Positions 3,234 to 59,969 of a DNA stretch of 64,000 nt are shown here, piece by piece (within the stretch, counting starts at the first letter, position 1; the number at the start of each line of letters is the position of its first letter). A program made the translations under genes and the position numbers. The stretch lies in NCBI GenBank assembly GCA_039931685.1, contig JBDTRK010000004.1:426-64425 (forward strand), read 5' to 3'. The stretch comes from Betaproteobacteria bacterium (lineage in GTDB: Bacteria > Pseudomonadota > Gammaproteobacteria > Burkholderiales > JACQAP01). The notes below the pieces were generated by a model. That model was not told the origin of the DNA and searched no databases. It worked only from the letters and a program-made list of their open reading frames with translations.

Positions 3234-3251
3234 GGCATGTTCCCCTCAAGG

Positions 3252-6827: not shown

Positions 6828-7078
6828 CGAATTCGCGCATTCGACGATCGCGAGCCAGTTCAGTGGGAACTGGCGCGACGAAAGGAGGATCGCCGCGCCA
6901 GCATTGCGCCCGCAATGGCCTGCGGTTACGAGTCCGCAGTTGGAAGCAGCCCCATCAAGGAAACGCGTTACCCAGGCTGCAGAACCAGACTAGCGCAGCC
7001 GGACCATCGCTGGTATCGGTCAGTTAACTGATTTGAGCCCCGAGCAACACCCGCCAGAGGCCCGCCGCAAGGCCTGAC

Positions 7079-7768: not shown

Positions 7769-7769
7769 T

Positions 7770-22615: not shown

Positions 22616-22821
22616 GGGCAAGCGGGATCGCCCCGTGAAAACCAGTGAATGAAAAAAACTGCAACGCGGCAGTTGCGGCTATCGGGCGCACAGACTTCGG
22701 CGCTGGCCCGGCGAGCTCGAACAGCCCGTGCCATGATGCCGTTGTCGCGCATTTCGCTCTGTGCACTATCGAACATACGGCACGCGCGTTTGTATTTTCG
22801 GGCCGGGCGATTTGCACCCGC

Positions 22822-22924: not shown

Positions 22925-23773
22925 TTACGAACCCGGCCGCGTTACCGTATTGCCATCGAGCGTCACGTTGGTTCCGGTAAAGAATCGGCCATTGGCCGAC
23001 GCGCCCGTGCCCAGTGTGACCGCTGATCCAGTAATGATGATGCCCTCAAAATGCGCGGTCGTGCCGATGGCCGCGCCAGCGCCACCGCCAATTTGCCAGA
23101 ACACGTTCTTGGCCAGTGCACCGCCGGTCAGGATCACATTCGTAGCGGCGGCCTGGGTCAGATTTCCGGAAATCTGGAAGATCCAGACATCCGTTGCGCT
23201 GCCGTTGAGGGTGAGATCCGATGCGATGCTCACGTCCGTGCCCCAGGTGTAGGTGCCGGCCGGGAGGGTTTCACTGCCGATGGTTCCGGCGCCGTGATTC
23301 AGGTTGGCACCCGTTCCTGCAGGACGTCCAGCCGCATCGCCATATGCGGCGATCGAATCGTTTACGGCCGTGGTCAGGTCGGCAGGGGTGGGCGCCGTAT
23401 AGTCAGATGCGTACATCTTGCCGGTGACTTGCGAAGACGTCGCAAAGGTATTGGACGCGTCCATCGTTTCTGAAAATCCCGTTGTCGCGGTGCTGGCGAT
23501 GGGACTCGTGCCGATGTTACCGGTCACTGTGGAGGTTGAAATGTTGGTGGTTCCCGCCTGCGCAAGAATCACGAAAGTCCCGGCGCTATTGAGGTTCACG
23601 CAAGCCGGGTTCGTCGTATCGCAAACCGCCCCTGCCGCGCTTACCGGCGTCGGGCCGGGGCTGGCTGCCGGAGCGCCATCGCCACCACCGCCGCCGCAAC
23701 CGGCCACGAAGCCGGTCAGCACAAACGCAATCAACCACGTCAGTCGCCTTGTAGTGCTCTCGAATCTGTTCAT
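22925..23773 (-). CDS. ice-binding-like (DUF3494) family lipoprotein
   Basis: Lipoprotein signal (LIAFVLTGFVAGC) followed by a Gly-rich linker. DUF3494 hallmarks: AGTFVILAQAGTTNISTSTVTGNIGTSPIASTATTGF and the C-terminal GASANGRFFTGTNVTLDGNTVT. Thr/Gly/Ala-rich beta-solenoid-like composition. Confidence 0.8.
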   Translation of the reverse strand: MNRFESTTRRLTWLIAFVLTGFVAGCGGGGGDGAPAASPGPTPVSAAGAVCDTTNPACVNLNSAGTFVILAQAGTTNISTSTVTGNIGTSPIASTATTGFSETMDASNTFATSSQVTGKMYASDYTAPTPADLTTAVNDSIAAYGDAAGRPAGTGANLNHGAGTIGSETLPAGTYTWGTDVSIASDLTLNGSATDVWIFQISGNLTQAAATNVILTGGALAKNVFWQIGGGAGAAIGTTAHFEGIIITGSAVTLGTGASANGRFFTGTNVTLDGNTVTRPGS

Positions 23774-24455: not shown

Positions 24456-24722
24456 ATGAAACCAGCTGGCCATTTTTGTTCCGCGCTTCTGGCAATTGTC
24501 GTATCGCTGTCCTGCGTCGGTTGCGCATCGAATGCAAAGAAGGAAGGGATGCGGAATTATTTCGACGACGGCATCGTCCCCCTCAAGGTCAAGTTGGCCT
24601 ATATCAATGGCCCGACCTTGCAATGGGCCTGCGCCGGGATCGAAACCTTCGATTGGGCCGATGCGGGCGCGCATGCCCGCCTTGACCGCGATACGTCAAG
24701 CCAACTGCCCGGGCTCGGCTAG
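24456..24722 (+). CDS. possible small lipoprotein
   Basis: MKPAGHFCSALLAIVVSLSCVGCASN looks like a lipoprotein signal, with GGAG upstream. Its 3' end overlaps the convergent hybrid kinase gene by 4 nt. Weak call. Confidence 0.35.
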   Translation: MKPAGHFCSALLAIVVSLSCVGCASNAKKEGMRNYFDDGIVPLKVKLAYINGPTLQWACAGIETFDWADAGAHARLDRDTSSQLPGLG

Positions 24723-27253: not shown

Positions 27254-27361
27254 TGCGGCCTCCCGGTATGGGTTTTGTTTTTCCGCGAAAACCGCGAAGT
27301 CAACCCTGTCCGCCCACTATGGGCTGTTGGCAGCGGCACAAGACTCGGGGCTCCGCGACGA

Positions 27362-27748
27362 TCAGGGATGCTGGTGCTGGCTGGCGGACTCCCGGAGTAG
27401 ATTCTTGAGTACGGCCATGACTTCTTCGATTTCGCTCGACTTGTCGAAAAAATAATCAGCTCCGTAACTGAGGCATTTCTCCCGGTTTTCGGGCGTCGGA
27501 AAGTTCGTCAGCATGATGATCTTCGGCGGCCGCGGATACTTCATGACGTCCTCGATCAGGTCAATGCCGCTGCGCTGCGGCATCCGCACATCGACGATCG
27601 CCACGTCGGGTTCAAGTTTTTTTACCAGGTCGGCAGCGTCATAGGCATTGTCCGCCTGAGCGACGATTTCGATGCCCTCGACCTCGGTGAGAAGCTCCGC
27701 GAGCCGCACCCGAATGAGTGCCGAATCATCCACAATCAGGACTTTCAT
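27362..27748 (-). CDS. single-domain CheY-like response regulator
   Basis: MKVLIVDDSALIRVRL...VAIVDVRMPQRSGIDL...IIMLTNF...FDKS. Confidence 0.9.
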   Translation of the reverse strand: MKVLIVDDSALIRVRLAELLTEVEGIEIVAQADNAYDAADLVKKLEPDVAIVDVRMPQRSGIDLIEDVMKYPRPPKIIMLTNFPTPENREKCLSYGADYFFDKSSEIEEVMAVLKNLLRESASQHQHP

Positions 27749-28218
27749 GAACGCCTGGCGATCTGCAGCGCGATCATTCGGAAATATCCTGCGGCTCGCC
27801 AGGTGGTCATCGCTTGGTCCGGTGTGAGCGAGCTTTCAGGAAATTTCAGTCTCCGCGACAGCCTGTGGCAATCCCTCCGGGATCGAGTCATCGCGATATC
27901 GCTCCCAAAACGTGGCCGACGGCAACAGGGCTGAAAAACGCAAGCGAGTCCGACTGGAGTAAACCCCCGCACATGGCTGGCCTGCAGGCTTCGAAACGCA
28001 AATCCATCGGTTATCTTGTCTCAAATACTCCGACGTTTATCCGGGTATCAGACTAGCCTACATATGCGACCGCCCGCTATCCAAAAGCATTGATTTTCCC
28101 GCTGGGGAAGCACTGATTTTGTCGTAGCGAAACGGCTACACGCGTGAAGCAAAATCCTACCGGGCGATTGCGGACCGGAAAGAAAGCGCAAGGGGGAGAA
28201 GCGTAAAGACCGGCGCGG

Positions 28219-28848
28219 CTATTCCACCAGCCCGTGTTTCATGGCGTAGCGCACCAGATCCGTATTGCTGTCGAGCTTGAGCTTCTTGAGTATGCGGATC
28301 CGGTAGGTACTGACCGTATTTGGACTCAGGATTAACTCCTCGGCGATGTTCGAGATCGATTTTCCGGACGCGATCATCCACATGACACGGTATTCGCGAT
28401 CTGACAGCGACTCGTGGGGAAGGCCTTCCGAACCCGCTTCGAGTTCGAGCGCCAGCTTTTCCGCAAGCGATGCGCTGACGTACTTCTTGCCGCTGACGGC
28501 TTTCCTGATCGCGACCGTCAGTTCCTCGGAGGCGCACTCCTTGTTTATGTAACCCGCCGCCCCTGCCCGCAACGCCGAGATTGCGATCGCGTCTTCCGGA
28601 TGCATGCTCAGTATGAGGACAGGGCGATGCGGATAGGCATGCTTGATTTCCTTCAAGACCTGCAGGCCGTTGCCTCCCGGCATGGAGTAGTCGAGGATCA
28701 GCACATCCCAGTCGACGTTGCGCACGGCTTCCAGCGTTTCACCGAAGTTCTTCGCTTCACCGACCACGGACATGTCCGGTTCCGCGGCAAGGATCTGCTT
28801 CAATCCCTGGCGCACCACCGTATGATCGTCCGCAATGAGGATGTTCAT
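28219..28848 (-). CDS. NarL/FixJ-family response regulator
   Basis: MNILIADDHTVVRQGL...VLILDYSMPGGNG, followed by the LuxR HTH (LSDREYRVMWMIASGKSISNIAEELILSPNTVSTYR). Confidence 0.92.
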   Translation of the reverse strand: MNILIADDHTVVRQGLKQILAAEPDMSVVGEAKNFGETLEAVRNVDWDVLILDYSMPGGNGLQVLKEIKHAYPHRPVLILSMHPEDAIAISALRAGAAGYINKECASEELTVAIRKAVSGKKYVSASLAEKLALELEAGSEGLPHESLSDREYRVMWMIASGKSISNIAEELILSPNTVSTYRIRILKKLKLDSNTDLVRYAMKHGLVE

Positions 28849-28932
28849 CGCGCTACATTCGCTCCGGGTTCAATAGCATGCGTGGCCGACGTCCGTCATT
28901 GCCGGACGCTCGATACGGGCACAAACCGGGTG

Positions 28933-30051
28933 CTATGGCTTGCCCCGCTCTGGAAATGGAATTGAAAGCGTGACGGACGTGCCTTTGCCATCGATGCCCT
29001 CGATCTCGACCCGACCTCCCAGGATATGCGCGCGCTCCTTGACGCCAACCAGTCCCAGTGATTTCGGGCTGCGCAAGTCTGTCTGTGCAATTCCCCGGCC
29101 ATTGTCGACGATTTTCAGTATGAGTTGATCGGCATCCAGCCGCAACTTAATGTCGACCCGCGTCGCTTTGGCATGGCGCGCCACGTTGGTCATGACCTCC
29201 TGGAAGATCCGGAAAACGGCGGTAGACCGCGGCTGGTCCATGACGAATTCCTCTTCCGGCAAATCCACCTTACAGCGGATGCCTGTGCGCGCCTGAAATT
29301 CCCTGGCCTGCCATTTCAGGGTACCCGTGAGTCCGACATCGTCGAGCACCTGAGGTCTGAGTTCCGAGGAAATCTTGCGCACGGATTGAATCGTTTCGTC
29401 GATGAGCCGGAACATCGATTTCACCTTCTCGGCCTGCTCTTCGAGTCCCTTGGGCAGTCTTTTCTCCAGCCACGACAAATCCATCTTCAGCCCGGTCAGC
29501 GCCTGTCCCAGTTCGTCGTGGATCTCGCGCGCCATGCTGGTTCGCTCCTCTTCCCGGACGGCCTGTATGTGCGCGGCGAACTCGCGCAGCCTTTCTTCCG
29601 ATTCGCGAAGGTTCTGCTCGATCACCTTGCGCTCGGCGATTTCCCTGCCGAGTTCCGCGTTGTAGCGGTAAAGATCGGCGAAGACCGATATTTTCGATCT
29701 GAGGATCTCAGGCACGAGAGGCTTCAGCAGATAGTCCACGCCCCCCACTTCATAGCCCCGGAAGCTGGAAACCGCGTCGTCGTAGCTGCCCGATAAGAAT
29801 ATGATCGGCGTATGTCGCGAGCGTTCGCATTGCCGGATCAACCTGGCAGTCGCGAAGCCGTCCCGGTCCGGCATCCGTACGCTCAGCAGAATGACGGCAA
29901 AATCGACCTGCGTCGCGTGGCGCAAGGCCTCCTGCGCATTACCTGCGGTCGTGATCTCCACGTCCAGGCTTGCGACGATTTCGCGGCACTCCCGCAGCGC
30001 CGAGGCGTCGTCTTCGACGATCAGGATATTTGGTTTTGACAGGCTGGACAT
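28933..30051 (-). CDS. receiver-HisKA_3-HATPase hybrid kinase (N-terminal REC)
   Basis: N-terminal receiver (ILIVEDDASALRE...VILLSVRMPDRDGF...IIFLSG), a coiled linker, a HisKA_3 H-box (REIHDELGQALTGLKMDL) and HATPase boxes (EVMTNVARHA, DNGRGI, SLGLVGVKERA). Confidence 0.9.
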   Translation of the reverse strand: MSSLSKPNILIVEDDASALRECREIVASLDVEITTAGNAQEALRHATQVDFAVILLSVRMPDRDGFATARLIRQCERSRHTPIIFLSGSYDDAVSSFRGYEVGGVDYLLKPLVPEILRSKISVFADLYRYNAELGREIAERKVIEQNLRESEERLREFAAHIQAVREEERTSMAREIHDELGQALTGLKMDLSWLEKRLPKGLEEQAEKVKSMFRLIDETIQSVRKISSELRPQVLDDVGLTGTLKWQAREFQARTGIRCKVDLPEEEFVMDQPRSTAVFRIFQEVMTNVARHAKATRVDIKLRLDADQLILKIVDNGRGIAQTDLRSPKSLGLVGVKERAHILGGRVEIEGIDGKGTSVTLSIPFPERGKP

Positions 30052-32711: not shown

Positions 32712-33533
32712 ATGCAAGCTTGCAGTCAAATTGTGAATAAACTGAATACAGGTTCGCCGCAATCTCCGGAGGTCGCGACGCTGACCGCGGAAGCCGCGTC
32801 GCAACTTGCCGGCGACGCCGTCGAGGTCGTGGTCGCCCGGCTGGACGTGGAGCCGGATGCGGTCAATGCGCTGGCAGGCTGGCTCGATGGCGATGAGCGT
32901 AAGCGGGCGCTTCGCTTTGAATTCGAACGCGACCGCCAGCGATTCATTGTTGCGCGGGGACGCCTGCGGCAATTGCTTGGCGCGCGCCTGGATACCGAAC
33001 CGCAATCGGTCGAGCTGTCGTATGGAACACACGGCAAGCCCGTTCTCGCACACGGATCCGCGGACCAGGACTGGCGCTTCAATGTCTCGCATTCCAGGGA
33101 CGTCGCGGTGTTCGCCTTTTGTCGCGGGCGCGAAGTGGGCATTGACGTCGAAGCGGTCCATTCCGTCCATTGCGCTGACGCCGTTGCGGCGCATTTCTTC
33201 TCGCGCAATGAACTGGAGACGTACCTGGCGCTCGACGAGCCGGACAAGGAGCTGGGTTTCTTCCATTGCTGGACACGCAAGGAAGCGTTCATCAAGGCCC
33301 TTGGCGACGGCCTGCGTTATCCCCTGGACTCTTTCGATGTCTCCCTGTCGCCGCGCGTGCCCGCCAGACTCCTGCGTGTCGGAAATCTGGACGGCAACCA
33401 CTCCGGATGGTACCTGCGCAGCTTCATTCCGACGCCGGGCTATGTCGCAGCGATCGTCATCGAGCGCTCCAGGGCCGCGACCAACGATGCCGCCTTTCTG
33501 AAGGGTCCCGCCTGCAAGCTATGGACGCGATGA
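32712..33533 (+). CDS. Sfp/EntD-type 4'-phosphopantetheinyl transferase
   Basis: GKPVL...FNVSHSRDVAVFAF...VGIDVE and FFHCWTRKEAFIKALG are the canonical PPTase motifs. The stop overlaps the next gene's start. Confidence 0.88.
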   Translation: MQACSQIVNKLNTGSPQSPEVATLTAEAASQLAGDAVEVVVARLDVEPDAVNALAGWLDGDERKRALRFEFERDRQRFIVARGRLRQLLGARLDTEPQSVELSYGTHGKPVLAHGSADQDWRFNVSHSRDVAVFAFCRGREVGIDVEAVHSVHCADAVAAHFFSRNELETYLALDEPDKELGFFHCWTRKEAFIKALGDGLRYPLDSFDVSLSPRVPARLLRVGNLDGNHSGWYLRSFIPTPGYVAAIVIERSRAATNDAAFLKGPACKLWTR

Positions 33534-34717
33534 ATCCGGTCGCCAGTGATCGGCGGCAACCCGTAGTGCCTTCCGGCAGCTATCGCTCCGCATGGATCGA
33601 CGACGAGGTGCGGATGTTCCGCAAGACCGCATCCCAGTTCATCCAGAAGGAATTCGCGCCTCACTATGCCCGCTGGTGCACCCAGCAACGCCCCGATGCC
33701 GACGCCTGGACGAAGGCGGGCGGCGTAGGCCTGCTTCTGCCTGACATTCCCGAAGCGTACGGCGGCGGTGGCGGCACCTTCGCCCATGAAACCGTGGTCC
33801 TGGAGGAACTTGCCCAGGCCGGGATCCAGTTCGGTGCCAGCATCCAGAGCATCGTCGCACACTACATCCTCGCCTACGGCAGGGAAGAGCAGAAACGCCA
33901 TTGGCTTCCCCGTATGGCGCGCGGTGAACTGGTGGCCGCCATCGCCATGAGCGAGCCTTCCGCGGGCTCCGACCTGCAGGGCATCAAGACCACTGCCCGG
34001 CGCGACGGCGACCACTATGTCATCAAAGGTTCGAAGACGTTCGTCACCAACGGCTGGCACGCCGGGATCGTCTGCCTGGCGGTGAAAACCGATCCCGCAA
34101 GCGCCGGCCTGAAAGGACTTTCCCTCGTCATCGTCGAAACGAAAAATCTTCCCGGCTACCACGTCGGGCGCTCGCTCGAAAAGGTCGGCATGCACGCGCA
34201 GGATACCTGCGAGATCTTCTTCGACGACGTGCGCGTGCCGGCCTCGAACCTTCTCGGCGCCGCTGAAGGCAAGGGCTTTTCCCAGATGATGGAGCAACTG
34301 CCCTACGAGCGCCTCACGGTCGGCGTAAGCGCCGTCGCAACAGCGGAGCGTGCGGTCGCCATTACCACCCAATATGTCAAGGACAGAACGGCCTTCAGCA
34401 AGCCGCTCATCGATTTTCAGAATACCCGCTTCCAGCTCGCCCAATGCGTGACCGAAGCGCAGATCGGGCGCGTCTTTCTGGACAACTGCATCGAGCGTTT
34501 CATCGCCGGAGGGCTCGACGACGTTACGACGGCCATGGCGAAGTACTGGCTCACCGAGTGTGAATGCCGCATCGTCGACGCGTGCATGCAGTTGCATGGC
34601 GGTTACGGCGTCATGATGGAGTATCCGATTGCCCGCATGTGGGTCGACAGCCGTGCGCAACGGATCTACGCCGGCACAAATGAAATCATGAAGGAGTTGA
34701 TCGCCTGGTCGTTGTAA
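33521..34717 (+). CDS. acyl-CoA dehydrogenase-family flavoenzyme
   Basis: ACAD N, middle and C regions (AIAMSEPSAGSDLQGIKTTA, GSKTFVTNG, HGGYGVMMEYPIARMWVDSRAQRIYAGTNEIMKELIA). The ATG at 33521 or 33530 overlaps the PPTase stop. The ORF-track start at 33266 lies inside the PPTase gene. Confidence 0.88.
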   Translation: MDAMNPVASDRRQPVVPSGSYRSAWIDDEVRMFRKTASQFIQKEFAPHYARWCTQQRPDADAWTKAGGVGLLLPDIPEAYGGGGGTFAHETVVLEELAQAGIQFGASIQSIVAHYILAYGREEQKRHWLPRMARGELVAAIAMSEPSAGSDLQGIKTTARRDGDHYVIKGSKTFVTNGWHAGIVCLAVKTDPASAGLKGLSLVIVETKNLPGYHVGRSLEKVGMHAQDTCEIFFDDVRVPASNLLGAAEGKGFSQMMEQLPYERLTVGVSAVATAERAVAITTQYVKDRTAFSKPLIDFQNTRFQLAQCVTEAQIGRVFLDNCIERFIAGGLDDVTTAMAKYWLTECECRIVDACMQLHGGYGVMMEYPIARMWVDSRAQRIYAGTNEIMKELIAWSL

Positions 34718-34753: not shown

Positions 34754-37588
34754 ATGAAACGGACGAAAAATACGCAGGACGGATCGACGCACAACGACAT
34801 CCCGCGGTTGCGCATTTTCGACGATGCGAACCGCCAGCGGCCGGCGGATGAATGCAATGACTCGGCGGTAGCTTTTCCCGACAAGGATCTGTGTTTGCAC
34901 GACCTGTTCGAGAAGCAGGCCGCACGAACTCCCGACGCGCTGGCCCTCGTGTACGAGCAGCAAAGGCTGAGCTATCGTGATCTGGCGCAGCGCTCCGACC
35001 AGCTCGCCCGGCAATTGCGCACCTTGGGCGCCGGACCGGATGTGCTCGTCGGGCTGCTGGTCGAGCGTTCGCTTGAGATGGTGGTGGGAATCCTGGGCAT
35101 TCTGAAGGCAGGCGCAGCCTATTTGCCCATTGATCCCGGCTATCCCCAGGAACGGGTCGGCTTCATGCTCGCCGACGCCAATGCCGCGCTGGTCCTCACG
35201 CAAACCAGTTTGCTGCCCTCCCTGCCTGTCGGCACCACGCAGGCCGTATGCCTGGATACCTTCGAATGGAGCGCAGCGGGGGCATCGCCGCGGGACGCAG
35301 TTCACTTCCATCCGCGCAATCTCGCGTACGTGATCTATACGAGCGGTTCCACCGGCCATCCCAAAGGGGTCGGCATCGAACATCGCAACATCGTCAATTA
35401 CGTGTTGGGCGTAGCGCAGCGGCTGCAACTGGAGCCCGGCATGAATTGCGCGACCGTGTCGACCATCGCCGCCGACCTCGGTAACACGGTGATCTTCCCG
35501 GCGCTGGCCACCGGGGGCTGCGTGCACGTCATATCGCAGGAAAGGGCCGAGAACCTGGACTTGCTGGCAGAGTACTTCAGCCGCGAGGCAATCGACGTGC
35601 TGAAGATCGTGCCGTCACATCTCGCGGCATTACAAAGCGGCAGGAATCCCGAGCGGATCATGCCCAGGAAACGTCTCATCCTCGGCGGCGAGGCCTCGCG
35701 GCTCGAATGGATCGCGCAACTGCGCGCGTTGGCGCCCGATTGCGCGATTTACAACCACTACGGCCCCACGGAAACCACCGTAGGGGTACTAACCTATCGT
35801 GTCGGCGCACAGTTGCCGGATACGCCGTCCGGCACACTGCCATTGGGCAAACCCCTGCCGAACAGCTGCATGCACATCCTCGATGCGGGCGGGCAACCCG
35901 TGCCGGTCGGGGATCGGGGCGAGCTCTGCATCGGCGGCAACGGCGTGGCGCGCAGCTATCTGAATCGTGCGGACCTGTCTGCCGCGAAGTTTGTCCGCGA
36001 TCCGTTCAGTCGGGATACCACGGCACGAATATATCGCACCGGTGACCTTGCGCGCTACCTGCCGGACGGAAACATCGAGTTTTGCGGCCGCATCGATGAC
36101 CAGATCAAGTTGAACGGCTATCGGGTCGAACTCGGTGAAATCGAATGCGCGCTGCGCGAACAGGGCGGCGTGCGCGATACCGTCGCACTGGCCCGCGAAG
36201 ACGAGTCAGGCACTCCACAGCTGGTCGCTTACGTGGTGCCGCAGCGGACCAATCAGGCGCTCTGGGGATGCAACCCGATCCATATCCTGCCGGATGGTTC
36301 GCCGATAGCGCATCTGAACAAGAGCGAAACCGACTACATCTATAACGAAATCTTCGTCCTGCAGGCCTACCTGCGGCACGGCATCTCGATACGCGACGGC
36401 GACTGCATCATCGATGCGGGCGCCAACATCGGCCTTTTCACCGTGTTCGCCAGCAGACTGGCCCGTAATGTGCGCATGCTGTCCTTCGAGCCGAATCCTG
36501 CCGCATTTGCCTGCCTGAAGGCCAATGCCGAAGCCTGGGGCACCTCGGTGAAATGCCTGCCGCTGGGATTATCCCGGGAAAACAAATCGGCGGAGCTGAC
36601 ATTTTTCCAGGGGCTTTCGCTGCTGTCCGGGTTTTACGCCGACGCCGCCGTCGAACACGAGATGGTCAAGAATTACGTGCTGAACCAGCAGCCGGACCCG
36701 TCGCAAAGCGAGCAGTCGGCTGCCGATATCGGCGCCTTGATCGATGACCGGCTGCAATCTCGCGTCATAACTGCCCAGCTTCGCACGCTGTCGAGCGTCA
36801 TGGCGGAGGAAGGTATCGACCGTATCGACCTGCTCAAGATCAATGTTGAAAAGAGCGAACTGGACGTGCTGATGGGCATCGGGCGCGACGACTGGGCCAG
36901 GATCCGCCAACTGGTCATCGAAGTGGACCAGAACGCAAACCTCACGCCCATCACCGACCTGCTGGAGCAGCACGGTTTCGAGTACCTCGTCGAACAGGAT
37001 CCGTTGCTGCGGAACACCGAGCTTTGTTACGTGTACGCGATCCAGCCTTCGGATCACGGTCGCCTCGTACGACAACAATCGGCCGATGCCCATCTGCGCG
37101 CGCTGCCAGCCGTCGACGCAGAAATTCTGACGCCCGCGCTTTTGCGCAACCATCTGAAAGCGCGGCTCCCCCGGTACATGATTCCGTCGGCATTCATCCT
37201 GATGGAGAAGTTCCCGTTGACTTCGAACGGCAAGATCGATCGCAAGGCCTTTCCTGCATTCTCCGGCGAGAAATTGGCCCCCGTCCGCGCACTCGCTGCT
37301 CCACAGACCGATACCCAAAGGGAACTCGCGACGATCTGGGCCGAGCTGCTGAAGCTCGACAGTGTGGGCATCGACGACGATTTCTTCGACCTCGGGGGAC
37401 ATTCCTTGCTCGCCATCCGCGCCGTGTCGCGCATACGGGATCGATTCGCGGTGAATCTGTCGCTGCGTAATCTGCTCGAAGCGCCCACGGTGGAAGGGTT
37501 GGCCCGGGTCATCGATGGCTTGTCCTGGCTGAAGCGCTCCAGGAACCCGTCGGATGACACCGGCAATCGGGAGGAAATCGCACTATGA
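34754..37588 (+). CDS. NRPS-like adenylation domain interrupted by an FkbM-type methyltransferase, plus a thiolation (PCP) domain; no condensation domain
   Basis: A-domain cores: LKAGAAYLPIDP, YVIYTSGSTGHPKGV, NHYGPTETTVG, YRTGDLARYLPDGNIEFCGRIDDQIKLNGYRVELGEIE, then LPRYMIPSAF and NGKIDRKAF. About 290 aa are inserted between the last two groups and carry FkbM-like motifs (DCIIDAGANIGLFTVFAS, LSFEPNP, IDLLKINVEKSELDVL). PCP motif FFDLGGHSLLAI. Confidence 0.9.
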   Translation: MKRTKNTQDGSTHNDIPRLRIFDDANRQRPADECNDSAVAFPDKDLCLHDLFEKQAARTPDALALVYEQQRLSYRDLAQRSDQLARQLRTLGAGPDVLVGLLVERSLEMVVGILGILKAGAAYLPIDPGYPQERVGFMLADANAALVLTQTSLLPSLPVGTTQAVCLDTFEWSAAGASPRDAVHFHPRNLAYVIYTSGSTGHPKGVGIEHRNIVNYVLGVAQRLQLEPGMNCATVSTIAADLGNTVIFPALATGGCVHVISQERAENLDLLAEYFSREAIDVLKIVPSHLAALQSGRNPERIMPRKRLILGGEASRLEWIAQLRALAPDCAIYNHYGPTETTVGVLTYRVGAQLPDTPSGTLPLGKPLPNSCMHILDAGGQPVPVGDRGELCIGGNGVARSYLNRADLSAAKFVRDPFSRDTTARIYRTGDLARYLPDGNIEFCGRIDDQIKLNGYRVELGEIECALREQGGVRDTVALAREDESGTPQLVAYVVPQRTNQALWGCNPIHILPDGSPIAHLNKSETDYIYNEIFVLQAYLRHGISIRDGDCIIDAGANIGLFTVFASRLARNVRMLSFEPNPAAFACLKANAEAWGTSVKCLPLGLSRENKSAELTFFQGLSLLSGFYADAAVEHEMVKNYVLNQQPDPSQSEQSAADIGALIDDRLQSRVITAQLRTLSSVMAEEGIDRIDLLKINVEKSELDVLMGIGRDDWARIRQLVIEVDQNANLTPITDLLEQHGFEYLVEQDPLLRNTELCYVYAIQPSDHGRLVRQQSADAHLRALPAVDAEILTPALLRNHLKARLPRYMIPSAFILMEKFPLTSNGKIDRKAFPAFSGEKLAPVRALAAPQTDTQRELATIWAELLKLDSVGIDDDFFDLGGHSLLAIRAVSRIRDRFAVNLSLRNLLEAPTVEGLARVIDGLSWLKRSRNPSDDTGNREEIAL

Positions 37589-38583
37589 ACCTGCAGCCCT
37601 TCCTGGCCGAACTGTACAGTCGCAATATTCAGCTCTGGGCCGACGGCGACCGCCTCAGGTGCAAGGCGCCAACGGGTGTACTCACGACCACCCTGCGCGA
37701 CCAGTTGATAGAGCGCAAGGGCGAGATCCTGGCGCTTCTGCGCAGCGCCGAGGCCGTTTCCAGCCAGCCGCGGGCGATCGTTCCGCTTCAACCGGGGGGC
37801 GATCGCACGCCAATTTTTGCGGTCGCCGGCCACAATGGCGACGTCTTCGCCTATCGCGCCCTGGCGTTCCACCTCGGTAAAGATCAGCCGTTCTTCGCAC
37901 TCGAGCCACCGGGACTCGATGGCGACAGCGAACCGTTGCAGCGGGTCGAGGACCTCGCCGACTATTTTGCCGCGCAGATCCAGGCATTTCAGCCTGACGG
38001 CCCCTACATCATTGCCGGCTATTGCGCGGGCGGCACGATTGCCTTCGAACTGGCCCGCCAGTTACGGGCGCGTGGCGCAACGATCCAGCTTCTGGCCCTG
38101 ATTGCCTCGCCGTACCCGACGTCCTTTCGCGTTGCGGCGCGTATGCAACAGGCTGTCGTGCACCAGGTGGCGCGCATCGTCCGGCATGTCCGTTCGTTGC
38201 GACGGCTGTCATTCCTGGAATCTATTCGGTACATAAGCGCGAAATTTCGCCGGCGCAGTCTACTGCGCGACGCCGAGCACGCTGCATCGCTGGATCCCGT
38301 TCTGGCGCGGCGCGACGACGTGGCGCGCACTACGATTGCGGCGCTGCGCCGTTACACGCCGGAGCGTTATTCCGGGCGTGTAGGCCTTTTGTTGCCCAAC
38401 AGGCAATGGTTGCGCTCAGGCGCCGCCCCCTTGCATTGGCGATCCGTAGCGCCACACGCCGAGCATTACTTCGGTCCGGACGGCTGCAATCCGGACCTCC
38501 TGTTGGTCGATCCGGACGCCCCCGCCATTGCCGATCTGTTCAGGCGGTGCCAGGAAGGCAAGCCGGCGGAGGCCTCGCCGTGA
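37585..38583 (+). CDS. TubC-N-type docking domain fused to a thioesterase with a Cys nucleophile (GYCAG)
   Basis: The N-terminus (FLAELYSRNIQLWADGDRLRCKAPTGVLTTTLRDQLIERKGEILALL) matches the TubC N-terminal docking pattern. The alpha/beta-hydrolase TE has the nucleophile elbow IIAGYCAGGTIAFELA (TGC at 38023-38025). The start overlaps the NRPS stop as ATGA. Confidence 0.8.
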   Translation: MNLQPFLAELYSRNIQLWADGDRLRCKAPTGVLTTTLRDQLIERKGEILALLRSAEAVSSQPRAIVPLQPGGDRTPIFAVAGHNGDVFAYRALAFHLGKDQPFFALEPPGLDGDSEPLQRVEDLADYFAAQIQAFQPDGPYIIAGYCAGGTIAFELARQLRARGATIQLLALIASPYPTSFRVAARMQQAVVHQVARIVRHVRSLRRLSFLESIRYISAKFRRRSLLRDAEHAASLDPVLARRDDVARTTIAALRRYTPERYSGRVGLLLPNRQWLRSGAAPLHWRSVAPHAEHYFGPDGCNPDLLLVDPDAPAIADLFRRCQEGKPAEASP

Positions 38584-38945: not shown

Positions 38946-40100
38946 ATGAAAATCTGCCTGCTCGGCCTGCATAACCTGTCTGTCCTGGCACCGGAATTCA
39001 AAAACCACACTGTGGGTGGCGAACCGGTCCAGCAGACATTGCTGGCAAGGGCGCTCGCGCGTCGAGGGCATGATGTAAGCATGGTCGTTGCTGATTATGG
39101 CCAGGAGGACGACCTGGAATGCAGGGCCATACGACTGTTCAAGGCCTATCGCCTCGATGCGGGCATACCGGTGCTGCGCTTCGTGCATCCCCGCTGGACC
39201 AGATTGTGGTCGGCACTGATGCGGGCGGATGCCGAGCTCTATTACACGAGTTGCGCAGGCATGGAGGTCGGCCTGCTCGCATTGTTCTGCCGGTATTTCG
39301 GCAAACGGTTCGTATTCCGCAGCGCAAGCGATGCGGACTGCGACAAATCGCGCCTGCTCGTCAGACACGCGCGCGATCGTTGGCTCTATGCCTATGGCCT
39401 GCGGCGGGCGGATGCCATCCTGGTACAGAGCGCCTCCCAGGCGCAAGCCTTGTTGCGCAGCTATGGATTGGCGAGCCGGATTGCGGGAATGCTGGTCGAG
39501 CATCCGCGGTCGCCCCCCCCCCATGACCTGGACGTGTTGTGGGTCGGCAACATTCGGGGCGTAAAGAGGCCGGACCGGGTTCTCGAACTTGCAGCGAAAC
39601 TGCCGCAATTCAATTTTCACATGGTCGGGGGCCCCCTGTCCGGCGACGAAGCGCTCTATGAGGCGGTGCGGGATGCGGCAGCGACAAGGACCAATCTGAC
39701 CTTTCATGGCCGCCTGTCGTATGGGGACGCCAACGATCTGTACGATCGGGCAAAGCTGCTGGTCAATACTTCCGATGTGGAGGGTTTTCCGAATTCGTAT
39801 CTGCAGGCCTGGATCCGGGGCGTGCCCGTAGTAACGCTCATCGATCCTGACCGCGTGATTGAGCGCGAAGGTCTGGGCGTCGCTGCAAGTTCACCGGACG
39901 GGCTCTCCAGGGCCATCGGTGCCCTGCTTGGGTCGCCGACAGCCTGGCAGGCGGCCAGCGATCGCTGCAGGTATTTCATGGCGCGGGAATTCGGCGAAGA
40001 TAAAATTCTGACCGCCTACCTTGAGACATTCGATGACGTCATGCGGTCCCGACCGCCCAACGCCCGGAATTTCCCGACAAGCGAGGCACCCCGTGCCTGA
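38946..40100 (+). CDS. GT4-family (group 1) glycosyltransferase
   Basis: MKICLLGLH...GGEPVQQTLLARALARRGHDVSMVV, with a C-terminal GT-B region (NTSDVEGFPNSYLQAWIRGVPVV). It contains the C10 tract. Confidence 0.85.
   Translation: MKICLLGLHNLSVLAPEFKNHTVGGEPVQQTLLARALARRGHDVSMVVADYGQEDDLECRAIRLFKAYRLDAGIPVLRFVHPRWTRLWSALMRADAELYYTSCAGMEVGLLALFCRYFGKRFVFRSASDADCDKSRLLVRHARDRWLYAYGLRRADAILVQSASQAQALLRSYGLASRIAGMLVEHPRSPPPHDLDVLWVGNIRGVKRPDRVLELAAKLPQFNFHMVGGPLSGDEALYEAVRDAAATRTNLTFHGRLSYGDANDLYDRAKLLVNTSDVEGFPNSYLQAWIRGVPVVTLIDPDRVIEREGLGVAASSPDGLSRAIGALLGSPTAWQAASDRCRYFMAREFGEDKILTAYLETFDDVMRSRPPNARNFPTSEAPRA
39513..39522 (+). repeat. homopolymeric C10 tract inside the GT4 coding sequence
   Basis: tcg ccc ccc ccc cat encodes S-P-P-P-H. 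I counted ten consecutive C directly in the sequence. Confidence 0.95.
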
Positions 40101-41190
40101 GACCCCTTTCATCATCACGGTCGATACGGAGGGCGACAATCTCTGGGAAAAACCACGAGAAATTACCACCCGCAATGCGGCCTACCTGCCTCGCTTCCAG
40201 TTGCTCTGTGAGCGGTTCCACTTCAAACCTGTCTATCTGGTGAATTATGAAATGGCGATGTCGGACGTATTTGTCGAGTTCGGACGCGATGTCGTATCCC
40301 GCGGTGCCGGCGAAATCGGCATGCATCTGCACGCCTGGAACTCGCCGCCGCTTGAGCCGCTGACCCGCGACGATTTCTTTCATCAACCCTTTCTGATCGA
40401 GTACCCGGACCGGATCATGAGCGAAAAAATCCACACCATGACCCATCTGCTCGAGCACAAGTTCGATCGCAAAATGATCAGCCATCGCGCGGGGCGCTGG
40501 GCGTTCGACGGCCGGTATGCGGCGATGCTGATCGACGAGGGTTATCTGGTCGACTGCTCCGTGACGCCGGGCGTCGACTGGAGCGCCACACCGGGTGATC
40601 CGGAGGGCAATGGCGGCACGGACTACACTTCATTTCCCGACAGCCCATACTTACTCAGCCCGGTCGATATTTCGGTTGCGTCAGCCGGACCAATGCTCGA
40701 GGTGCCCATGACGGTCTTTGCGAGCAAACTCTTCCAACATTCGCCCTGGGTTTATCGGGTGCCCGGTTTGGCCCGGGCCGCCCGGCGAATATCTCCGCAG
40801 CGACGCTGGCTGTGCCCGGTTGCACTTCTGGAAAAGCACAACCACGATGCCATGCTGCAACTCGCCCGCAGAGCACGCGATGAACCTCCGACCCATATGG
40901 AATTCATGCTGCACTCCTCGGATCTCATGCCGGGCGGCAGCCCGAGCTTCAAGAACGCATCAGACATCGACGGTTTGTACGATCGCCTGGAAACGCTGTT
41001 CGACAAATTATCAATGTGGTGCCGCGGGATGACGCTCGCGGAGTTCCGGGAACACTGGATGAAGGCGCCGAATAAAACGCGATTAATCGGGCTCGGCGAA
41101 CAGCAAAGCAATCGGGTGGCCAGATCAATGGAAGTGAGAAAGTCCACGACCGGCCCGGCCCCGGTGGAAAAAGGCAGCGTACCGGGATGA
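40093..41190 (+). CDS. polysaccharide deacetylase-like / glycoside hydrolase-deacetylase barrel superfamily protein
   Basis: FIITVDTEGDNLW...GMHLHAWNSPP...EFMLHSSDLMPG resembles CE4-like barrel proteins from EPS loci. GTG at 40093 overlaps the GT4 stop by 8 nt; ATG at 40021 is an alternative. The family call is moderate. Confidence 0.55.
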   Translation: MPETPFIITVDTEGDNLWEKPREITTRNAAYLPRFQLLCERFHFKPVYLVNYEMAMSDVFVEFGRDVVSRGAGEIGMHLHAWNSPPLEPLTRDDFFHQPFLIEYPDRIMSEKIHTMTHLLEHKFDRKMISHRAGRWAFDGRYAAMLIDEGYLVDCSVTPGVDWSATPGDPEGNGGTDYTSFPDSPYLLSPVDISVASAGPMLEVPMTVFASKLFQHSPWVYRVPGLARAARRISPQRRWLCPVALLEKHNHDAMLQLARRARDEPPTHMEFMLHSSDLMPGGSPSFKNASDIDGLYDRLETLFDKLSMWCRGMTLAEFREHWMKAPNKTRLIGLGEQQSNRVARSMEVRKSTTGPAPVEKGSVPG

Positions 41191-41975
41191 TCCGCATCGA
41201 GGGGACGGGCGCGATTTACGGGGAAGTATGGTACGACGAAGAACCGCCCCGGAATTCCGGAGTGGATATCGTCCGCTATCGCTGCAGACACGCCGCTATC
41301 GCGAATGCCCGCCATTCTCCGTTTCTGTCGTTGGTCACGGATCTTTGCGCAGAGGCCAATGCCATCGCCGACCAGTTCGGCAAGGATTGCCGGTACAAAG
41401 TCCGGCGCGCCGACACGAAGGATGAACTGGACACGGAATTCATCCTGGAACCGGAGAACCGGCTGGACGAATTCGGCGAATTCTTCGACACGTTCGCTCG
41501 TCAAAAGGGGCATGAAGCCTGCGATCGGCAATGGTTGCGCGCTGCATGCAAAGCCCGCCAGCTCGTCCTCACGACGGCGACCCGGCACGGCGAGGCGCTG
41601 GTGTGGCACGCCTATGTCATCGCTGGAAATTCGACCTGGTTGCAGTACACCGGATCCTGTTTCCGCAATCGAGAAAGCGATTACCGCGCCCTCGTCGGCC
41701 GGGCCAATCGTTGGCTGCACTGGAAAGACATGCTGCGGTTCAAGGAACTGGGAATGCTCCGCTATGACTGGGGCGGAATGTTCGAGGACGAATCGACCCC
41801 GGACCGCGCCGGGATCAACGAATTCAAAAGAACCTTTGGCGGACGGCTTGCGCGAACTTACGATTGCACGGTCCCGGTGACCCTCAAAGGCCGGATCTAT
41901 CTTCCGCTTCGCGACGCGTGGCGCAGCCGAAAGACCATTCTTCCCGGCCGAAAAGAAGTTGCCGCAGGAGCCTGA
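41187..41975 (+). CDS. FemAB-like / GNAT-fold (Acetyltransf_6-like) protein
   Basis: 262 aa. KDCRYKVRRA..., WHAYVIAGNSTWLQYTGS..., ANRWLHWKDMLRFKELGMLRYDWGG and INEFKRTFGG resemble FemAB-family / BioF2-like N-acyltransferases found in PEP-CTERM-type EPS loci. The start overlaps the upstream stop as ATGA. Confidence 0.55.
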   Translation: MIRIEGTGAIYGEVWYDEEPPRNSGVDIVRYRCRHAAIANARHSPFLSLVTDLCAEANAIADQFGKDCRYKVRRADTKDELDTEFILEPENRLDEFGEFFDTFARQKGHEACDRQWLRAACKARQLVLTTATRHGEALVWHAYVIAGNSTWLQYTGSCFRNRESDYRALVGRANRWLHWKDMLRFKELGMLRYDWGGMFEDESTPDRAGINEFKRTFGGRLARTYDCTVPVTLKGRIYLPLRDAWRSRKTILPGRKEVAAGA

Positions 41976-59351: not shown

Positions 59352-59969
59352 GTCAGGTTTCTCGTAAGTAGTTCTCGCAAGCTTCCCGGTTCGGTGGACG
59401 GTTCAAAACTGTCGGTTCCGCAGCGAGCAAATTCTGTTGTTAGCGCGCTGGCAAGATTCTCCCCGCATCCTTCGGCCTAAAGGCGTTCTACGACTCGAGC
59501 CAAATGGCGACGATTTCGCACTCTTCCGCCAGTGACTCGAATGGGAAAGCCGCTAGAGCCGCCTTCCTGCAGGTCAGAATAAAGCGTTCGACAAAGGCGT
59601 TCCAATGCATTTTTCAGACATGGACGAAGCGCAACTCGATGCTTCGGGCGCGGCACCAAGAGATAAAATGGGTCGCTTGTTAGTCCGGTGCTAATGTCGT
59701 AACGAATCGCGTGAATCAGGCTGTGCAGGTCGATCGACCGCCCCGTAAGCTTCATCACTTATTTCACCGGGGCGCTCACAGCAGTGTCGATGCTGACGGC
59801 GCCACAGTTTTCATCGTCGATTACGCCAGGAGTCCGGGGTACCCGCCCACGGTAATGCGTGTTTCGCATGAAGAGAGCCCAGCCCGCATTCATCTGGAGC
59901 ACCATAAATCCGGCGCCCGCTGCTCGCTCCTGCGCACCCGGCGCTCGGACCGCCGCGGCAGATCAATCT

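What the first reader, a model, noticed from the sequence alone, without database searches (positions are those of the whole stretch)
36242..37123. Adenylation domain interrupted by an FkbM-family methyltransferase
About 290 aa are inserted between the A8 core (GRIDDQIKLNGYRVELGEIE, aa ~445-464) and the A9/A10 cores (LPRYMIPSAF, NGKIDRKAF, aa ~805-832).
- The insert carries FkbM-type (Methyltransf_21-like) motifs: DCIIDAGANIGLFTVFAS, LSFEPNP and IDLLKINVEKSELDVL.
- Interrupted A domains are established, with the a8-a9 site typical for N-methyltransferases.
- The embedded enzymes I know of are N-, O- or S-MTs of the generic class I type, ketoreductases or oxidases.
- An FkbM-type insert is unusual to my knowledge.
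- Free-standing FkbM-family enzymes are frequent in polysaccharide and O-antigen methylation, which fits the EPS context.
Basis: partly seen in the sequence, partly recalled or inferred. Interest (0 to 1): 0.7.

Follow-up and report, generated by a model that had tools for sequence, protein, structure and literature searches.

The report
Aspartate-loading enzyme with built-in FkbM methyltransferase
The gene really does encode an amino-acid-activating enzyme with an FkbM-type methyltransferase spliced into it, but that layout is already a known and common family; what is new is a widespread aspartate-specific sub-type with altered methyltransferase motifs and unusual partner enzymes, whose product is unknown.

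Summary
Observation confirmed. ORF 34754-37588 (+) encodes a 944-aa adenylation(A)-methyltransferase(M)-carrier(T) protein. About 300 aa lie between A-domain cores a8 and a9/a10. This insert is a full-length FkbM homologue: PF05050 60 bits, TIGR01444 83.5 bits, 39% identity to FkbM (E 1e-59).

The claim that an FkbM-type insert is unusual does not hold.
- It is the published "family 2a / type II M domain" interrupted A domain, represented by KtzH (L-Ser O-methylation).
- KtzH, AmbE, FrsG and the aurantimycin NRPS are listed as PF05050 hits.
- Most of the top 150 of 1,649 cluster representatives are embedded in megasynthases.

Three features are not described in the literature I searched.
- The insert belongs to a sub-clade with motif v Asp→Asn and the motif vi His missing.
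- This sub-clade sits almost only in A domains with the Asp code DLTK(I/V)GH(V/I)GK. It occurs in 143 species genomes across at least ten phyla.
- It usually follows a PPTase and an LCAD-like acyl-CoA dehydrogenase, and pairs with a thioesterase that has a Cys nucleophile.

In Betaproteobacteria the cassette is one module inside an EPS locus. Elsewhere it starts Asp*-Gly-(Thr/Cys) NRPSs.

Likely mechanism: Asp is loaded on T and methylated there. The target atom, most likely the β-carboxylate, is inferred only.

The parts
32712..33533 (+). Sfp/HetI-type 4'-phosphopantetheinyl transferase, first gene of the cassette
   Evidence: PF01648 and PF22624. HetI model 159.9 bits, below its cut-off. Found upstream in 37 of 80 related loci, in the fixed order PPTase-ACAD-A(M)T wherever inspected.
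33521..34717 (+). Acyl-CoA dehydrogenase-family flavoenzyme (LCAD/IVD type). The likely start is ATG 33521 or 33530; the mechanical ORF starts at 33266.
   Evidence: PF02771, PF02770 and PF00441. Best PDB hits are 2pg0 and human LCAD. It reads 'IYAGT' where MCAD has its catalytic Glu, but keeps 'LPYERL', which I recall as the site of the LCAD/IVD-type base. It is the best conserved partner: median 74% identity, present in 43 of 80 loci. Start positions.
34754..37588 (+). A(M)T gene: interrupted adenylation domain plus carrier domain, 944 aa
34907..36241 (+). A-domain core and first half of the C-terminal subdomain (a1-a8, ending with strand LVAYVVP). Specificity code DLTKIGHVGK, which predicts Asp.
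   Evidence: PF00501 aa 52-403; TIGR01733 416.5 bits. The code was read off by motif register, supported by an alignment to LgrA. DLTKVGHVGK is reported as Asp/OH-Asp in PMC12283262 and PMC10391617.
36242..37150 (+). Embedded FkbM-family (type II) SAM methyltransferase domain, about 300 aa. It is the N/His-less variant: DAGANIG, FEP, KINVEKSE, EV-D.
   Evidence: PF05050 and TIGR01444. 39% identity to FkbM. Motifs i-vi compared with the table. Variant residues are conserved in nearly all of the 120 listed homologues: motif v Asn in 114 of 120, E(V/I)D in 118 of 120. AF2 model of the insert has pLDDT 88.2 with alternating strands and helices as in class I methyltransferases.
37166..37252 (+). 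a9 (LPRYMIPSAF) and a10 (NGKIDRKAF) cores, the second half of the A subdomain
   Evidence: PF13193 profile positions 42-76 map to aa 793-827. pLDDT is 85-90 in the full-length model. K827 is invariant.
37322..37513 (+). Peptidyl carrier (T) domain; Ppant serine in GGHSL (nt 37394-37408)
   Evidence: PF00550, 62.5 bits; motif position.
37585..38583 (+). Stand-alone thioesterase with an N-terminal TubC-type docking domain and a Cys nucleophile (GYCAG, motif starting at aa 145). Its start overlaps the A(M)T stop codon (ATGA).
   Evidence: PF18563 and PF00975. GxCxG in 51 of 52 related loci. Best PDB hit is AB3403 (4zxh), which also reads GWCFG. Overlap seen.
38946..41975 (+). GT4 glycosyltransferase (38946-40100), an unknown ORF (40021-41190) and a weak GNAT/FemAB-like ORF (41187-41975). 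These travel with the cassette in Betaproteobacteria only.
   Evidence: Synteny in L001/L008, L005, L007, L018, L059, L062 and L064; L001 and L008 are the same contig.

Best explanation
The 944-aa protein is a free-standing NRPS loading module, A(M)-T. The A domain selects L-aspartate. Its small C-terminal subdomain is split between cores a8 and a9 by a complete FkbM-family class I SAM methyltransferase. This is the arrangement already described as family 2a / type II M domain, represented by KtzH.

Proposed cycle, by analogy with characterised interrupted A domains:
1. The upstream PPTase primes the carrier domain.
2. The A domain forms Asp-AMP and loads Asp as a thioester on the carrier arm.
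3. The embedded M domain methylates the tethered residue with SAM.
4. The LCAD-like acyl-CoA dehydrogenase probably desaturates the tethered acyl group between Cα and Cβ.
5. The Cys-thioesterase docks on the conserved C-terminal tail through its TubC-type domain and releases or transfers the product.

Asp has no hydroxyl. This M sub-clade has also lost the His and changed the Asp that are conserved in FkbM and other canonical members, whose documented activity is O-methylation. I therefore think the most likely methyl acceptor is the β-carboxylate, giving an Asp β-methyl ester.

In Betaproteobacteria the single-module product is probably tied to the adjacent exopolysaccharide genes. In other phyla the same module starts short Asp*-Gly-(Thr/Cys) peptides.

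Shown: domain identity, insertion site, Asp code, variant motifs, conservation, synteny. Inferred: the order of steps, the methylated atom, the ACAD reaction, the fate of the product.
For: - Architecture and family.
- Same boundary motif (LVAYVVP), size (about 300 aa against 290±13) and motifs i-ii as type II M domains.
- Load-then-methylate order is stated for interrupted A domains in PMC8341866.
- Asp code DLTKIGHVGK; literature equivalents.
- All 16 M-bearing proteins analysed from 12 related loci carry DLTK(I/V)GH(V/I)G. Among cluster representatives, most N/His-less inserts flanked by a8 sit in Asp-coded A domains, whereas D/H inserts sit in Ser, Thr, Gln-like, Glu and Asp codes.
- The insert is under at least as much constraint as the A core: median 68.8% against 65.8% identity over 76 loci. 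Invariant residues include the D-x-G-x-N-x-G motif and FEP, which Lundy et al. propose as the SAM-binding motif and its acidic partner.
- The M domain is present in loci that lack the ACAD (L010-L014, L016, L061), so its substrate does not depend on the ACAD.
- PPTase-ACAD-A(M)T order is conserved across phyla, and the TE is adjacent or terminal.
- AF2 full-length model: pLDDT 80.5, a9-a10 region 85-90; it matches NRPS A-T structures and the interrupted A domain 5wmm.
Against: - No biochemical data exist for any member of this sub-clade.
- All 29 FkbM-family enzymes within characterised MIBiG BGC boundaries are documented or proposed O-methyltransferases. EreM, from the same study (Paoli et al.), is an amide N-methyltransferase. 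A carboxyl methyltransferase of this family has no precedent that I found.
- Canonical D/H-type inserts also occur in Asp-coded A domains. The Asp code alone therefore does not dictate the variant motifs.
- The roles of the altered residues are unknown. No close FkbM-type structure is solved: Foldseek returns only generic class I MTs, TM 0.35-0.43.
- The Stachelhaus code predicts but does not prove the substrate; β-hydroxy-Asp or a related acid is possible.
- The EPS link rests on synteny in one class only.
Confidence: 0.7

Rival explanations
1. The M domain is still a hydroxyl or enol O-methyltransferase. It would act after another enzyme has modified the tethered Asp. One route is ACAD desaturation to the enamine/imine, hydrolysis to an oxaloacetyl thioester and methylation of its enol, giving a methoxy-fumaryl unit. 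Another is methylation of β-hydroxy-Asp.
For: - All FkbM-family members documented in MIBiG are O-methyltransferases on hydroxyls or enol-type oxygens, including AmbE (enol ether AMB) and LptK (3-OMe-Asp).
- The ACAD is the best conserved partner.
- The code DLTKVGHVGK also serves OH-Asp.
Against: - The M domain persists in loci with no ACAD within ±8 kb (L010-L014, L016, L061).
- No Asp β-hydroxylase gene was seen beside the cassette in the window.
- The His conserved in FkbM and most canonical family members is missing in this sub-clade.
Confidence: 0.17
2. The M domain N-methylates the free α-amino group of the starter Asp, giving N-methyl-Asp.
For: - EreM shows that an FkbM-family enzyme can N-methylate.
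- The module is always the first one, so its α-amine is free.
- From my own knowledge, an Asp/Asn at the motif IV position is typical of N-methyltransferases.
Against: - NRPS backbone N-methylation is normally done by type I or type V M domains, which are unrelated to this insert.
- EreM methylates amides, not amines.
- This reading gives no rationale for the ACAD partner.
Confidence: 0.08
3. The M domain is catalytically dead and retained only as a structural spacer. The protein would simply load Asp.
For: Two otherwise well conserved family positions are changed: motif v D→N and motif vi His lost. Motif iv is also degenerate.
Against: - The insert is as conserved as the A core across at least ten phyla.
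- The D-x-G-x-N-x-G motif (proposed SAM-binding) and FEP acidic residue are invariant.
- The changes are the same everywhere, a fixed alternative state rather than decay.
Confidence: 0.04
4. The FkbM domain methylates the exopolysaccharide, as free-standing FkbM enzymes do on sugars, and is only fused to the A domain by accident. Alternatively the arrangement is a gene-fusion or assembly artefact.
For: - The cassette lies in an EPS locus.
- Many free-standing PF05050 enzymes methylate sugars.
Against: - The insert sits inside the A subdomain at exactly the a8-a9 boundary used by characterised interrupted A domains.
- The same module heads multimodular NRPSs in other phyla, with no homologue of the window's EPS genes found within ±8 kb.
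- All 120 listed homologues, from independent assemblies, carry the A, FkbM and PCP hits on one polypeptide.
Confidence: 0.01

Closest known systems
KtzH(A8MIIA9)4 of kutzneride biosynthesis: 'family 2a' interrupted A domain with a 'type II' M domain (Lundy et al. 2020, PMC8341866)
   Same: - Insertion between a8 and a9 after the L(V/A/I)(A/G)(Y/F)xxP strand.
- About 290-300 aa.
- M domain of the FkbM/PF05050 family; KtzH is a PF05050 hit in Paoli et al.
- Motifs i and ii match, with DxGxNxG in place of GxGxG.
- Followed by a T domain.
   Different: - KtzH activates and O-methylates L-Ser inside an elongation module.
- Here the code is Asp, the module is free-standing or initiating, motif v has Asn for Asp, motif vi lacks the His, and motif iv is degenerate.
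FkbM (31-O-methyltransferase of FK506/FK520) and free-standing FkbM-family O-methyltransferases such as LptK (3-OMe-Asp in A54145)
   Same: - 39% identity to FkbM over its whole length, E 1e-59.
- Same motif set.
- LptK also acts on an Asp-derived residue.
   Different: - These enzymes are free-standing and methylate hydroxyls. FkbM and LptK keep K-x-D-x-E/Q and EVH-D.
- The window domain is embedded in an A domain and lacks both features.
AmbE (PA2302) A-MT-T1 of AMB biosynthesis; FrsG (FR900359); the aurantimycin NRPS
   Same: NRPS proteins that carry a PF05050 methyltransferase; AmbE is described as containing A, MT and T domains. AmbE acts on an acidic residue (Glu).
   Different: - Different substrates: Glu, Thr and Ser.
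- They sit in larger assembly lines with oxygenase partners.
- I could not check motif v and vi in these three proteins themselves (sequences truncated in the source). Glu-, Ser- and Thr-coded inserts in the representative set are of the canonical D/H type.
TioS(A8MIA9)4 with TioT, PDB 5WMM: the only solved interrupted A domain
   Same: Same a8-a9 insertion topology. The full-length model matches it at E 1.6e-47.
   Different: - Its M domain is a type I backbone N-methyltransferase with no detectable sequence similarity to this insert.
- The relative domain placement differs or is not reliably predicted (rmsd 20.7 Å).
AB3403 (ABBFA_003403) NRPS of Acinetobacter baumannii, PDB 4ZXH; SulM and ObiF1 Cys-thioesterases
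   Same: - The partner TE's best solved relative is the AB3403 TE, which also has Cys in the GxSxG position.
- From my recollection, the AB3403 cluster likewise has an ACAD and a PPTase.
   Different: - AB3403 is a C-A-T-TE module; I recall it as Gly-activating. Its Pfam-type matches to the window protein show no M domain.
- SulM and ObiF1 make β-lactam and β-lactone rings. No such chemistry can be inferred here.

Membership tests
Interrupted A domain family 2a (A8-Ms(O)-A9, type II M domain; Lundy et al. 2020) | M domain inserted between A-domain cores a8 and a9, after the strand L(V/A/I)(A/G)(Y/F)xxx(P) | tested here: met
   a8 at aa 445-464, LVAYVVP at 490-496, a9 at 805-814, a10 at 825-833. 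PF13193 is split.
Interrupted A domain family 2a (type II M domain) | Insert size 290 ± 13 aa | tested here: met
   About 300 aa, from aa 497 to about 799.
Interrupted A domain family 2a (type II M domain) | Motif i EIFxxxxYxxxG and motif ii (V/I)(F/I/V)DVGx(N/H)xG(L/M)F(S/T)L | tested here: met
   EIFVLQAYLRHG (532-543) and IIDAGANIGLFTVF (552-565). The only differences are V→A and the final L→V.
Interrupted A domain family 2a (type II M domain) | Motifs iii EPδP(E/P)x5(R/A/E)xN and iv FT(Y/F)YPxx(S/T)x(L/M)SG | tested here: inconclusive
   FEPNPAAFACLKAN and LTFFQGLSLLSG: the skeleton is kept, with several positions outside the published sets.
Interrupted A domain family 2a (type II M domain) | Motif v (I/V)DLLKδD(V/A)ExxE and motif vi WxxIxQδxxEVH | tested here: not met
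   IDLLKINVEKSE (Asp→Asn) and WARIRQLVIEV-D (His absent; MAFFT keeps the following Asp invariant). Conserved in nearly all of the 120 listed homologues and down to about 48% identity.
Interrupted A domain family 2a (type II M domain) | Host A domain specific for Ser/Thr; side-chain hydroxyl O-methylation | tested here: not met
   The code DLTKIGHVGK predicts Asp. The methylation chemistry itself cannot be tested with these tools.
FkbM methyltransferase family (Pfam PF05050 / TIGR01444) | Score above the curated thresholds of the family models; full-length similarity to FkbM | tested here: met
   PF05050 60.1 bits against 22.7; TIGR01444 83.5 bits against 37.7; 39% identity and E 1e-59 to FkbM.
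FkbM methyltransferase family | SAM-dependent methyl transfer | not testable with these tools
   The D-x-G-x-N-x-G motif (proposed SAM-binding) and the FEP acidic residue are invariant. The insert model has alternating strands and helices as in class I MTs, pLDDT 88. No assay was possible.
NRPS amino-acid adenylation domain (TIGR01733) | Core motifs a1-a10 including the a10 Lys; score above threshold | tested here: met
   TIGR01733 416.5 bits against 317.4. K827 is invariant.
β-Lactam/β-lactone-forming Cys-thioesterases (SulM, ObiF1), considered for the partner TE | Cys nucleophile plus the SulM-specific Gln-Cys-Asn motif and a positively charged pocket, or close similarity to ObiF1 TE | tested here: not met
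   The Cys is present (GYCAG), but there is no Q-C-N motif. SulM and ObiF1 are not among the PDB sequence hits; the best hit is AB3403.

The most novel reading that the evidence does not exclude
An FkbM-type domain embedded in an NRPS A domain may have been re-tooled, through loss of the conserved His and an Asp→Asn change, into a carboxyl O-methyltransferase. It would esterify the β-carboxylate of carrier-bound aspartate. The ester would mask or activate the side chain, in the manner of BioC or PIMT. That could let an acyl-CoA-dehydrogenase-type enzyme and a Cys-thioesterase process the residue. In the Asp-Gly assembly lines of other phyla it could drive aspartimide or isoaspartyl formation. 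The result would be an unknown class of small Asp-derived metabolites, or exopolysaccharide decorations, made by many uncultured soil bacteria.
Probability: 0.25. Interest if true: 0.7.

Novelty: new variant of a known kind. Interest (0 to 1): 0.4.

Why it matters
FkbM-type methyltransferases inside A domains are a catalogued and biochemically validated family, so the high interest given to the insert type is not warranted.

The follow-up did delimit a coherent, widely distributed and apparently undescribed sub-family. It combines four elements:
- an Asp-specific A domain;
- an M domain with a fixed alternative pair of changes in two otherwise conserved motifs;
- an LCAD-like dehydrogenase;
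- a Cys-thioesterase.

It occurs in 143 species-level genomes, almost all of them MAGs, from Burkholderiales, Acidobacteriota, Gemmatimonadota, Nitrospirota, Verrucomicrobiota and others.

If the chemistry differs from hydroxyl O-methylation, it would extend what embedded M domains are known to do. It would also add a building block for NRPS engineering.

The survey further shows that the published 'Ser/Thr' label for type II M domains is too narrow. Canonical inserts also sit in Asp-, Glu- and Gln-coded A domains.

Tried and rejected
- **The look-up of encoding contigs** for the window protein itself and for the Georgfuchsia homologue returned nothing. Two other homologues worked.
- **Fold search of the insert model against PDB** gave only generic class I methyltransferases (CbiT, METTL16, fibrillarin, COMT; TM 0.35-0.43). 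It therefore gave no information on catalytic residues, and the 5wmm M domain was not among the top 50.
- **Sequence search against PDB** matched 5wmm only through its A part.
- **Literature searches** found nothing that describes this cassette or an Asp-specific embedded FkbM domain. The queries covered 'interrupted adenylation' + FkbM; FkbM + adenylation; Asp methyl ester + NRPS + succinimide; and FkbM/PEP-CTERM/peptide synthetase.
- **ACAD as prolyl-carrier dehydrogenase (pyrrole pathway)** was considered and rejected. The A code is Asp, not Pro, and the ACAD is closest to LCAD/2pg0.
- **β-lactone/β-lactam-forming TE** was considered. It was not adopted because the SulM motif is absent and the nearest solved relative, AB3403, also has a Cys.
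- **One Pfam call failed** on the size limit and was repeated with fewer proteins.


Full report
**1. What is there**

The region lies in one ORF, 34754..37588 on the + strand, 944 aa.

Pfam places the following domains:
- AMP-binding at aa 52-403;
- Methyltransf_21 (FkbM, PF05050) at aa 554-744 (60.1 bits, cut-off 22.7);
- the last 35 positions of AMP-binding_C at aa 793-827;
- PP-binding at aa 857-920.

NCBIfam calls the N-terminal part an amino-acid adenylation domain (TIGR01733, 416.5 bits). It calls the insert alone an FkbM-family methyltransferase (TIGR01444, 83.5 bits, cut-off 37.7). No generic NRPS methyltransferase model was reported.

- a8 at aa 445-464;
- the strand LVAYVVP at 490-496;
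- a9 LPRYMIPSAF at 805-814;
- a10 NGKIDRKAF at 825-833.

The given coordinates 36242-37123 equal aa 497-790, which is the insert. The insert aligns with the whole of FkbM itself at 39% identity, E 1e-59.

All 120 listed homologues (65-87% identity, from independent assemblies) carry the A, FkbM and PCP hits on one polypeptide. The a10 lysine is invariant. A fusion artefact is therefore excluded.

**2. Is an FkbM-type insert unusual? No.**

Lundy, Mori and Garneau-Tsodikova (PMC8341866) sort bacterial interrupted A domains into seven families. Family 2a (A8-Ms(O,Ser/Thr)-A9; n = 149 in NCBI; M domain 290 ± 13 aa) has KtzH(A8MIIA9)4 as its biochemically characterised representative. Its 'type II' M domain carries six motifs:
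- EIFxxxxYxxxG;
- ..DVGx(N/H)xG..;
- EPδP..N;
- FT(Y/F)YP..SG;
- (I/V)DLLKδD(V/A)ExxE;
- WxxIxQδxxEVH.

FkbM's own sequence carries recognisable versions of all six motifs (sequence). That paper never uses the word FkbM, which may be why the link is easy to miss.

Paoli et al. (PMC9259500, Supplementary Table 5) scanned MIBiG with PF05050. Their hits include KtzH (O-Me-Ser), FrsG (O-Me-Thr), the aurantimycin NRPS (O-Me-Ser), AmbE (AMB, from Glu), OciA and several PKSs.

My own scan of 1.84 billion cluster representatives found 1,649 with E ≤ 1e-30 to the insert. Most of the best 150 lie inside 800-7,000-aa proteins. Most of these are flanked by an a8 motif upstream and a9/a10 downstream. The architecture is thus both catalogued and common.

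**3. What is particular about this one**

(a) *Substrate code.* I read the code by motif register, supported by a residue-level alignment to LgrA. It is D241 L242 T245 K284 I309 G311 H335 V343 G344 K827, that is DLTKIGHVGK. DLTKVGHVGK is reported for Asp and β-OH-Asp (PMC12283262, PMC10391617). A subset of the homologues has exactly that code.

(b) *Variant methyltransferase motifs.*
- Motifs i and ii fit type II.
- Motif v reads IDLLKINVEKSE, with Asn where the family has Asp.
- Motif vi reads WARIRQLVIEV-D. The His is missing, and MAFFT keeps the following Asp invariant.
- Both changes are present in nearly all of the 120 listed homologues and in relatives down to about 48% identity. Most free-standing FkbM-like proteins at 40-45% identity keep the Asp, and those whose motif vi could be read mostly keep the His.

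(c) *Coupling of the two features.* All 16 M-bearing proteins analysed from 12 related loci carry DLTK(I/V)GH(V/I)G.
- Among cluster representatives, the N/His-less type sits mostly in Asp-coded A domains. A few sit in DVRHFALLA and a handful in other codes.
- The canonical D/H type sits in Ser, Thr, Gln-like, Glu and also Asp codes.

(d) *Constraint.* Over 76 loci the insert is as conserved as the A core (median 68.8% against 65.8% identity). The D-x-G-x-N-x-G motif (proposed SAM-binding) and the FEP acidic residue are invariant. The domain is therefore maintained, not decaying.

**4. Distribution and partners**

A scan of one genome per species found 143 genomes that encode the N-type insert. 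The 80 loci kept come from the following groups, nearly all as MAGs:
- Burkholderiales and Rhodocyclaceae;
- Acidobacteriota, Gemmatimonadota, Nitrospirota, Verrucomicrobiota;
- Chloroflexi, Eisenbacteria, Binatia, Myxococcota, Planctomycetes;
- Anabaena.

*Upstream genes.* A PPTase homologue is detected in 37 loci and an acyl-CoA dehydrogenase homologue in 43 loci, directly upstream and in the same order in the loci inspected. These are lower bounds, because many contigs are cut.

*The dehydrogenase.* The ACAD is closest to 2pg0 and human LCAD. It lacks the MCAD-type Glu (IYAGT) but keeps LPYERL, which from my own knowledge is where the LCAD/IVD-type base sits.

*The thioesterase.*
- It has an N-terminal TubC-type docking domain.
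- Its start codon overlaps the A(M)T stop codon.
- It reads GxCxG, a cysteine nucleophile, in 51 of 52 loci.
- Its best solved relative is the AB3403 TE, which also has a Cys at that position.
- Cys-TEs are known from SulM and ObiF1 (PMC11298585), but the SulM-specific motif is absent here.

*Two contexts for the module.*
- In Betaproteobacteria the module stands alone and is followed by GT4, an unknown ORF and a weak GNAT/FemAB-like ORF. It lies in a locus with further GT4s, a nucleotide-sugar dehydrogenase, an XrtA-type amidotransferase-like AsnB, a Wzy_C protein, a heparinase II/III-like protein and a polysaccharide lyase.
- In Gemmatimonadota and Acidobacteriota the same A(M)T is the initiation module of A(M)T-C-A-T[-C-A-T]-TE synthetases. 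Their next A domains carry codes that I recognise (from my own knowledge) as Gly, and then Thr or Cys.

**5. Structure**

The full-length AF2 model has mean pLDDT 80.5 and pTM 0.77.
- The β-hairpin before the insert (aa 473-496) and the a9-a10 segment after it (pLDDT 85-90) are confidently predicted. Whether they pack together as one A subdomain could not be inspected, because I had no access to the coordinates.
- The model matches NRPS A-T structures and the interrupted A domain 5wmm (E 1.6e-47). The match to 5wmm has a large rmsd, so the relative domain placement is not informative.

The insert alone gives pLDDT 88.2 with alternating strands and helices as in class I methyltransferases. Its PDB neighbours are only generic class I methyltransferases. 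The roles of the altered residues therefore cannot be read from a solved relative.

**6. How it most likely works**

Shown: an Asp-coded A domain, an intact and constrained FkbM-type domain at a8-a9, a carrier domain, and the conserved partners.

Inferred by analogy with characterised interrupted A domains, which activate, load and then methylate:
1. The PPTase primes the T domain.
2. The A domain loads Asp.
3. The M domain methylates the tethered residue.
4. The ACAD desaturates it.
5. The docked Cys-TE releases or transfers the product.

For the methyl acceptor I favour the β-carboxylate, at roughly 0.45 of the total, for three reasons:
- Asp has no hydroxyl.
- The M domain occurs without the ACAD in several phyla.
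- The sub-clade has lost the His and altered the Asp that are conserved in FkbM and other canonical members, whose documented activity is O-methylation.

The alternatives are methylation of an enol or hydroxyl created by a partner enzyme, α-N-methylation, or an inactive domain. They are listed as rivals with the assays that separate them.

The tie to the exopolysaccharide rests only on synteny within Betaproteobacteria.

**7. Verdict**

- The family assignment is right.
- The novelty claim is wrong.
- The instance is a new variant of a known kind. It is moderately interesting as a lead to an uncharacterised and widespread Asp-modifying cassette.

Noticed in passing
window 37585-38583 (+), motif GYCAG starting at aa 145: The partner thioesterase has a cysteine in the nucleophile position. 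This holds in 51 of 52 related loci, whether the TE is free-standing or fused. Its best PDB hit, the AB3403 TE, also reads GWCFG.
   Followed up: partly
window 33521-34717 (+): The acyl-CoA dehydrogenase lacks the MCAD-type catalytic Glu (IYAGT) but keeps LPYERL, as in LCAD and 2pg0. It is the most conserved partner of the A(M)T gene, at median 74% identity across phyla.
   Followed up: partly
proteins P0246, P0247, P0304, P0315, P0329, P0372, P0377, P0378, P0252, P0257, P0259, P0258 and P0339: Canonical (Asp + His) FkbM-type inserts also sit in A domains coded for Asp, Glu (DAKDLGVVD, with lengths like AmbE) and Gln-like (DAWQFGLID). The published 'Ser/Thr' label for type II M domains therefore looks too narrow.
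   Followed up: partly
proteins P0261, P0268, P0270, P0280 and P0281: A few N/His-less inserts lie in A domains with the code DVRHFALLA. This resembles codes reported for Asn and for an 'AMA' residue (DPRH..LLAK) rather than for Asp.
   Followed up: no
loci L017, L021, L010, L040, L027, L049 and L065: In other phyla the Asp-A(M)T module is followed by a Gly-coded module (DILQLGM(I/V)W) and sometimes by a Thr- or Cys-coded one. This implies short Asp*-Gly-X peptides of unknown identity.
   Followed up: partly
window 13931-22621 (-): A 2,896-aa ORF with GH94 supersandwich and catalytic domains plus a weak GT2 hit. I recognise this combination as resembling cyclic β-1,2-glucan synthases (NdvB/Cgs).
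   Followed up: partly
window 41187-41975 (+) and 40021-41190 (+): Two ORFs always follow the cassette and GT4 in Betaproteobacteria. One has weak GNAT/FemAB-like hits (Acetyltransf_6, E 0.0012); the other has no family hit. Either could be the transferase that uses the cassette's product.
   Followed up: no
window 58001-62000: G+C drops to 0.50-0.54, against about 0.61 elsewhere. The dip lies inside the EPS locus, next to the Wzy_C-type gene at 61911-63452.
   Followed up: no
window 7-8798: A dense signalling cluster: KaiC-like ATPase (1731-3233), hybrid and RsbRD/RsbU-type histidine kinases, and a GAF-GGDEF protein (5625-6827). Further two-component genes lie at 24719-30051, just upstream of the cassette.
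   Followed up: no
window 22925-23773 (-); L001 near 18316: An ice-binding-like (PF11999) protein lies near the locus. A 32%-identical homologue lies beside the cassette in another betaproteobacterial MAG.
   Followed up: no
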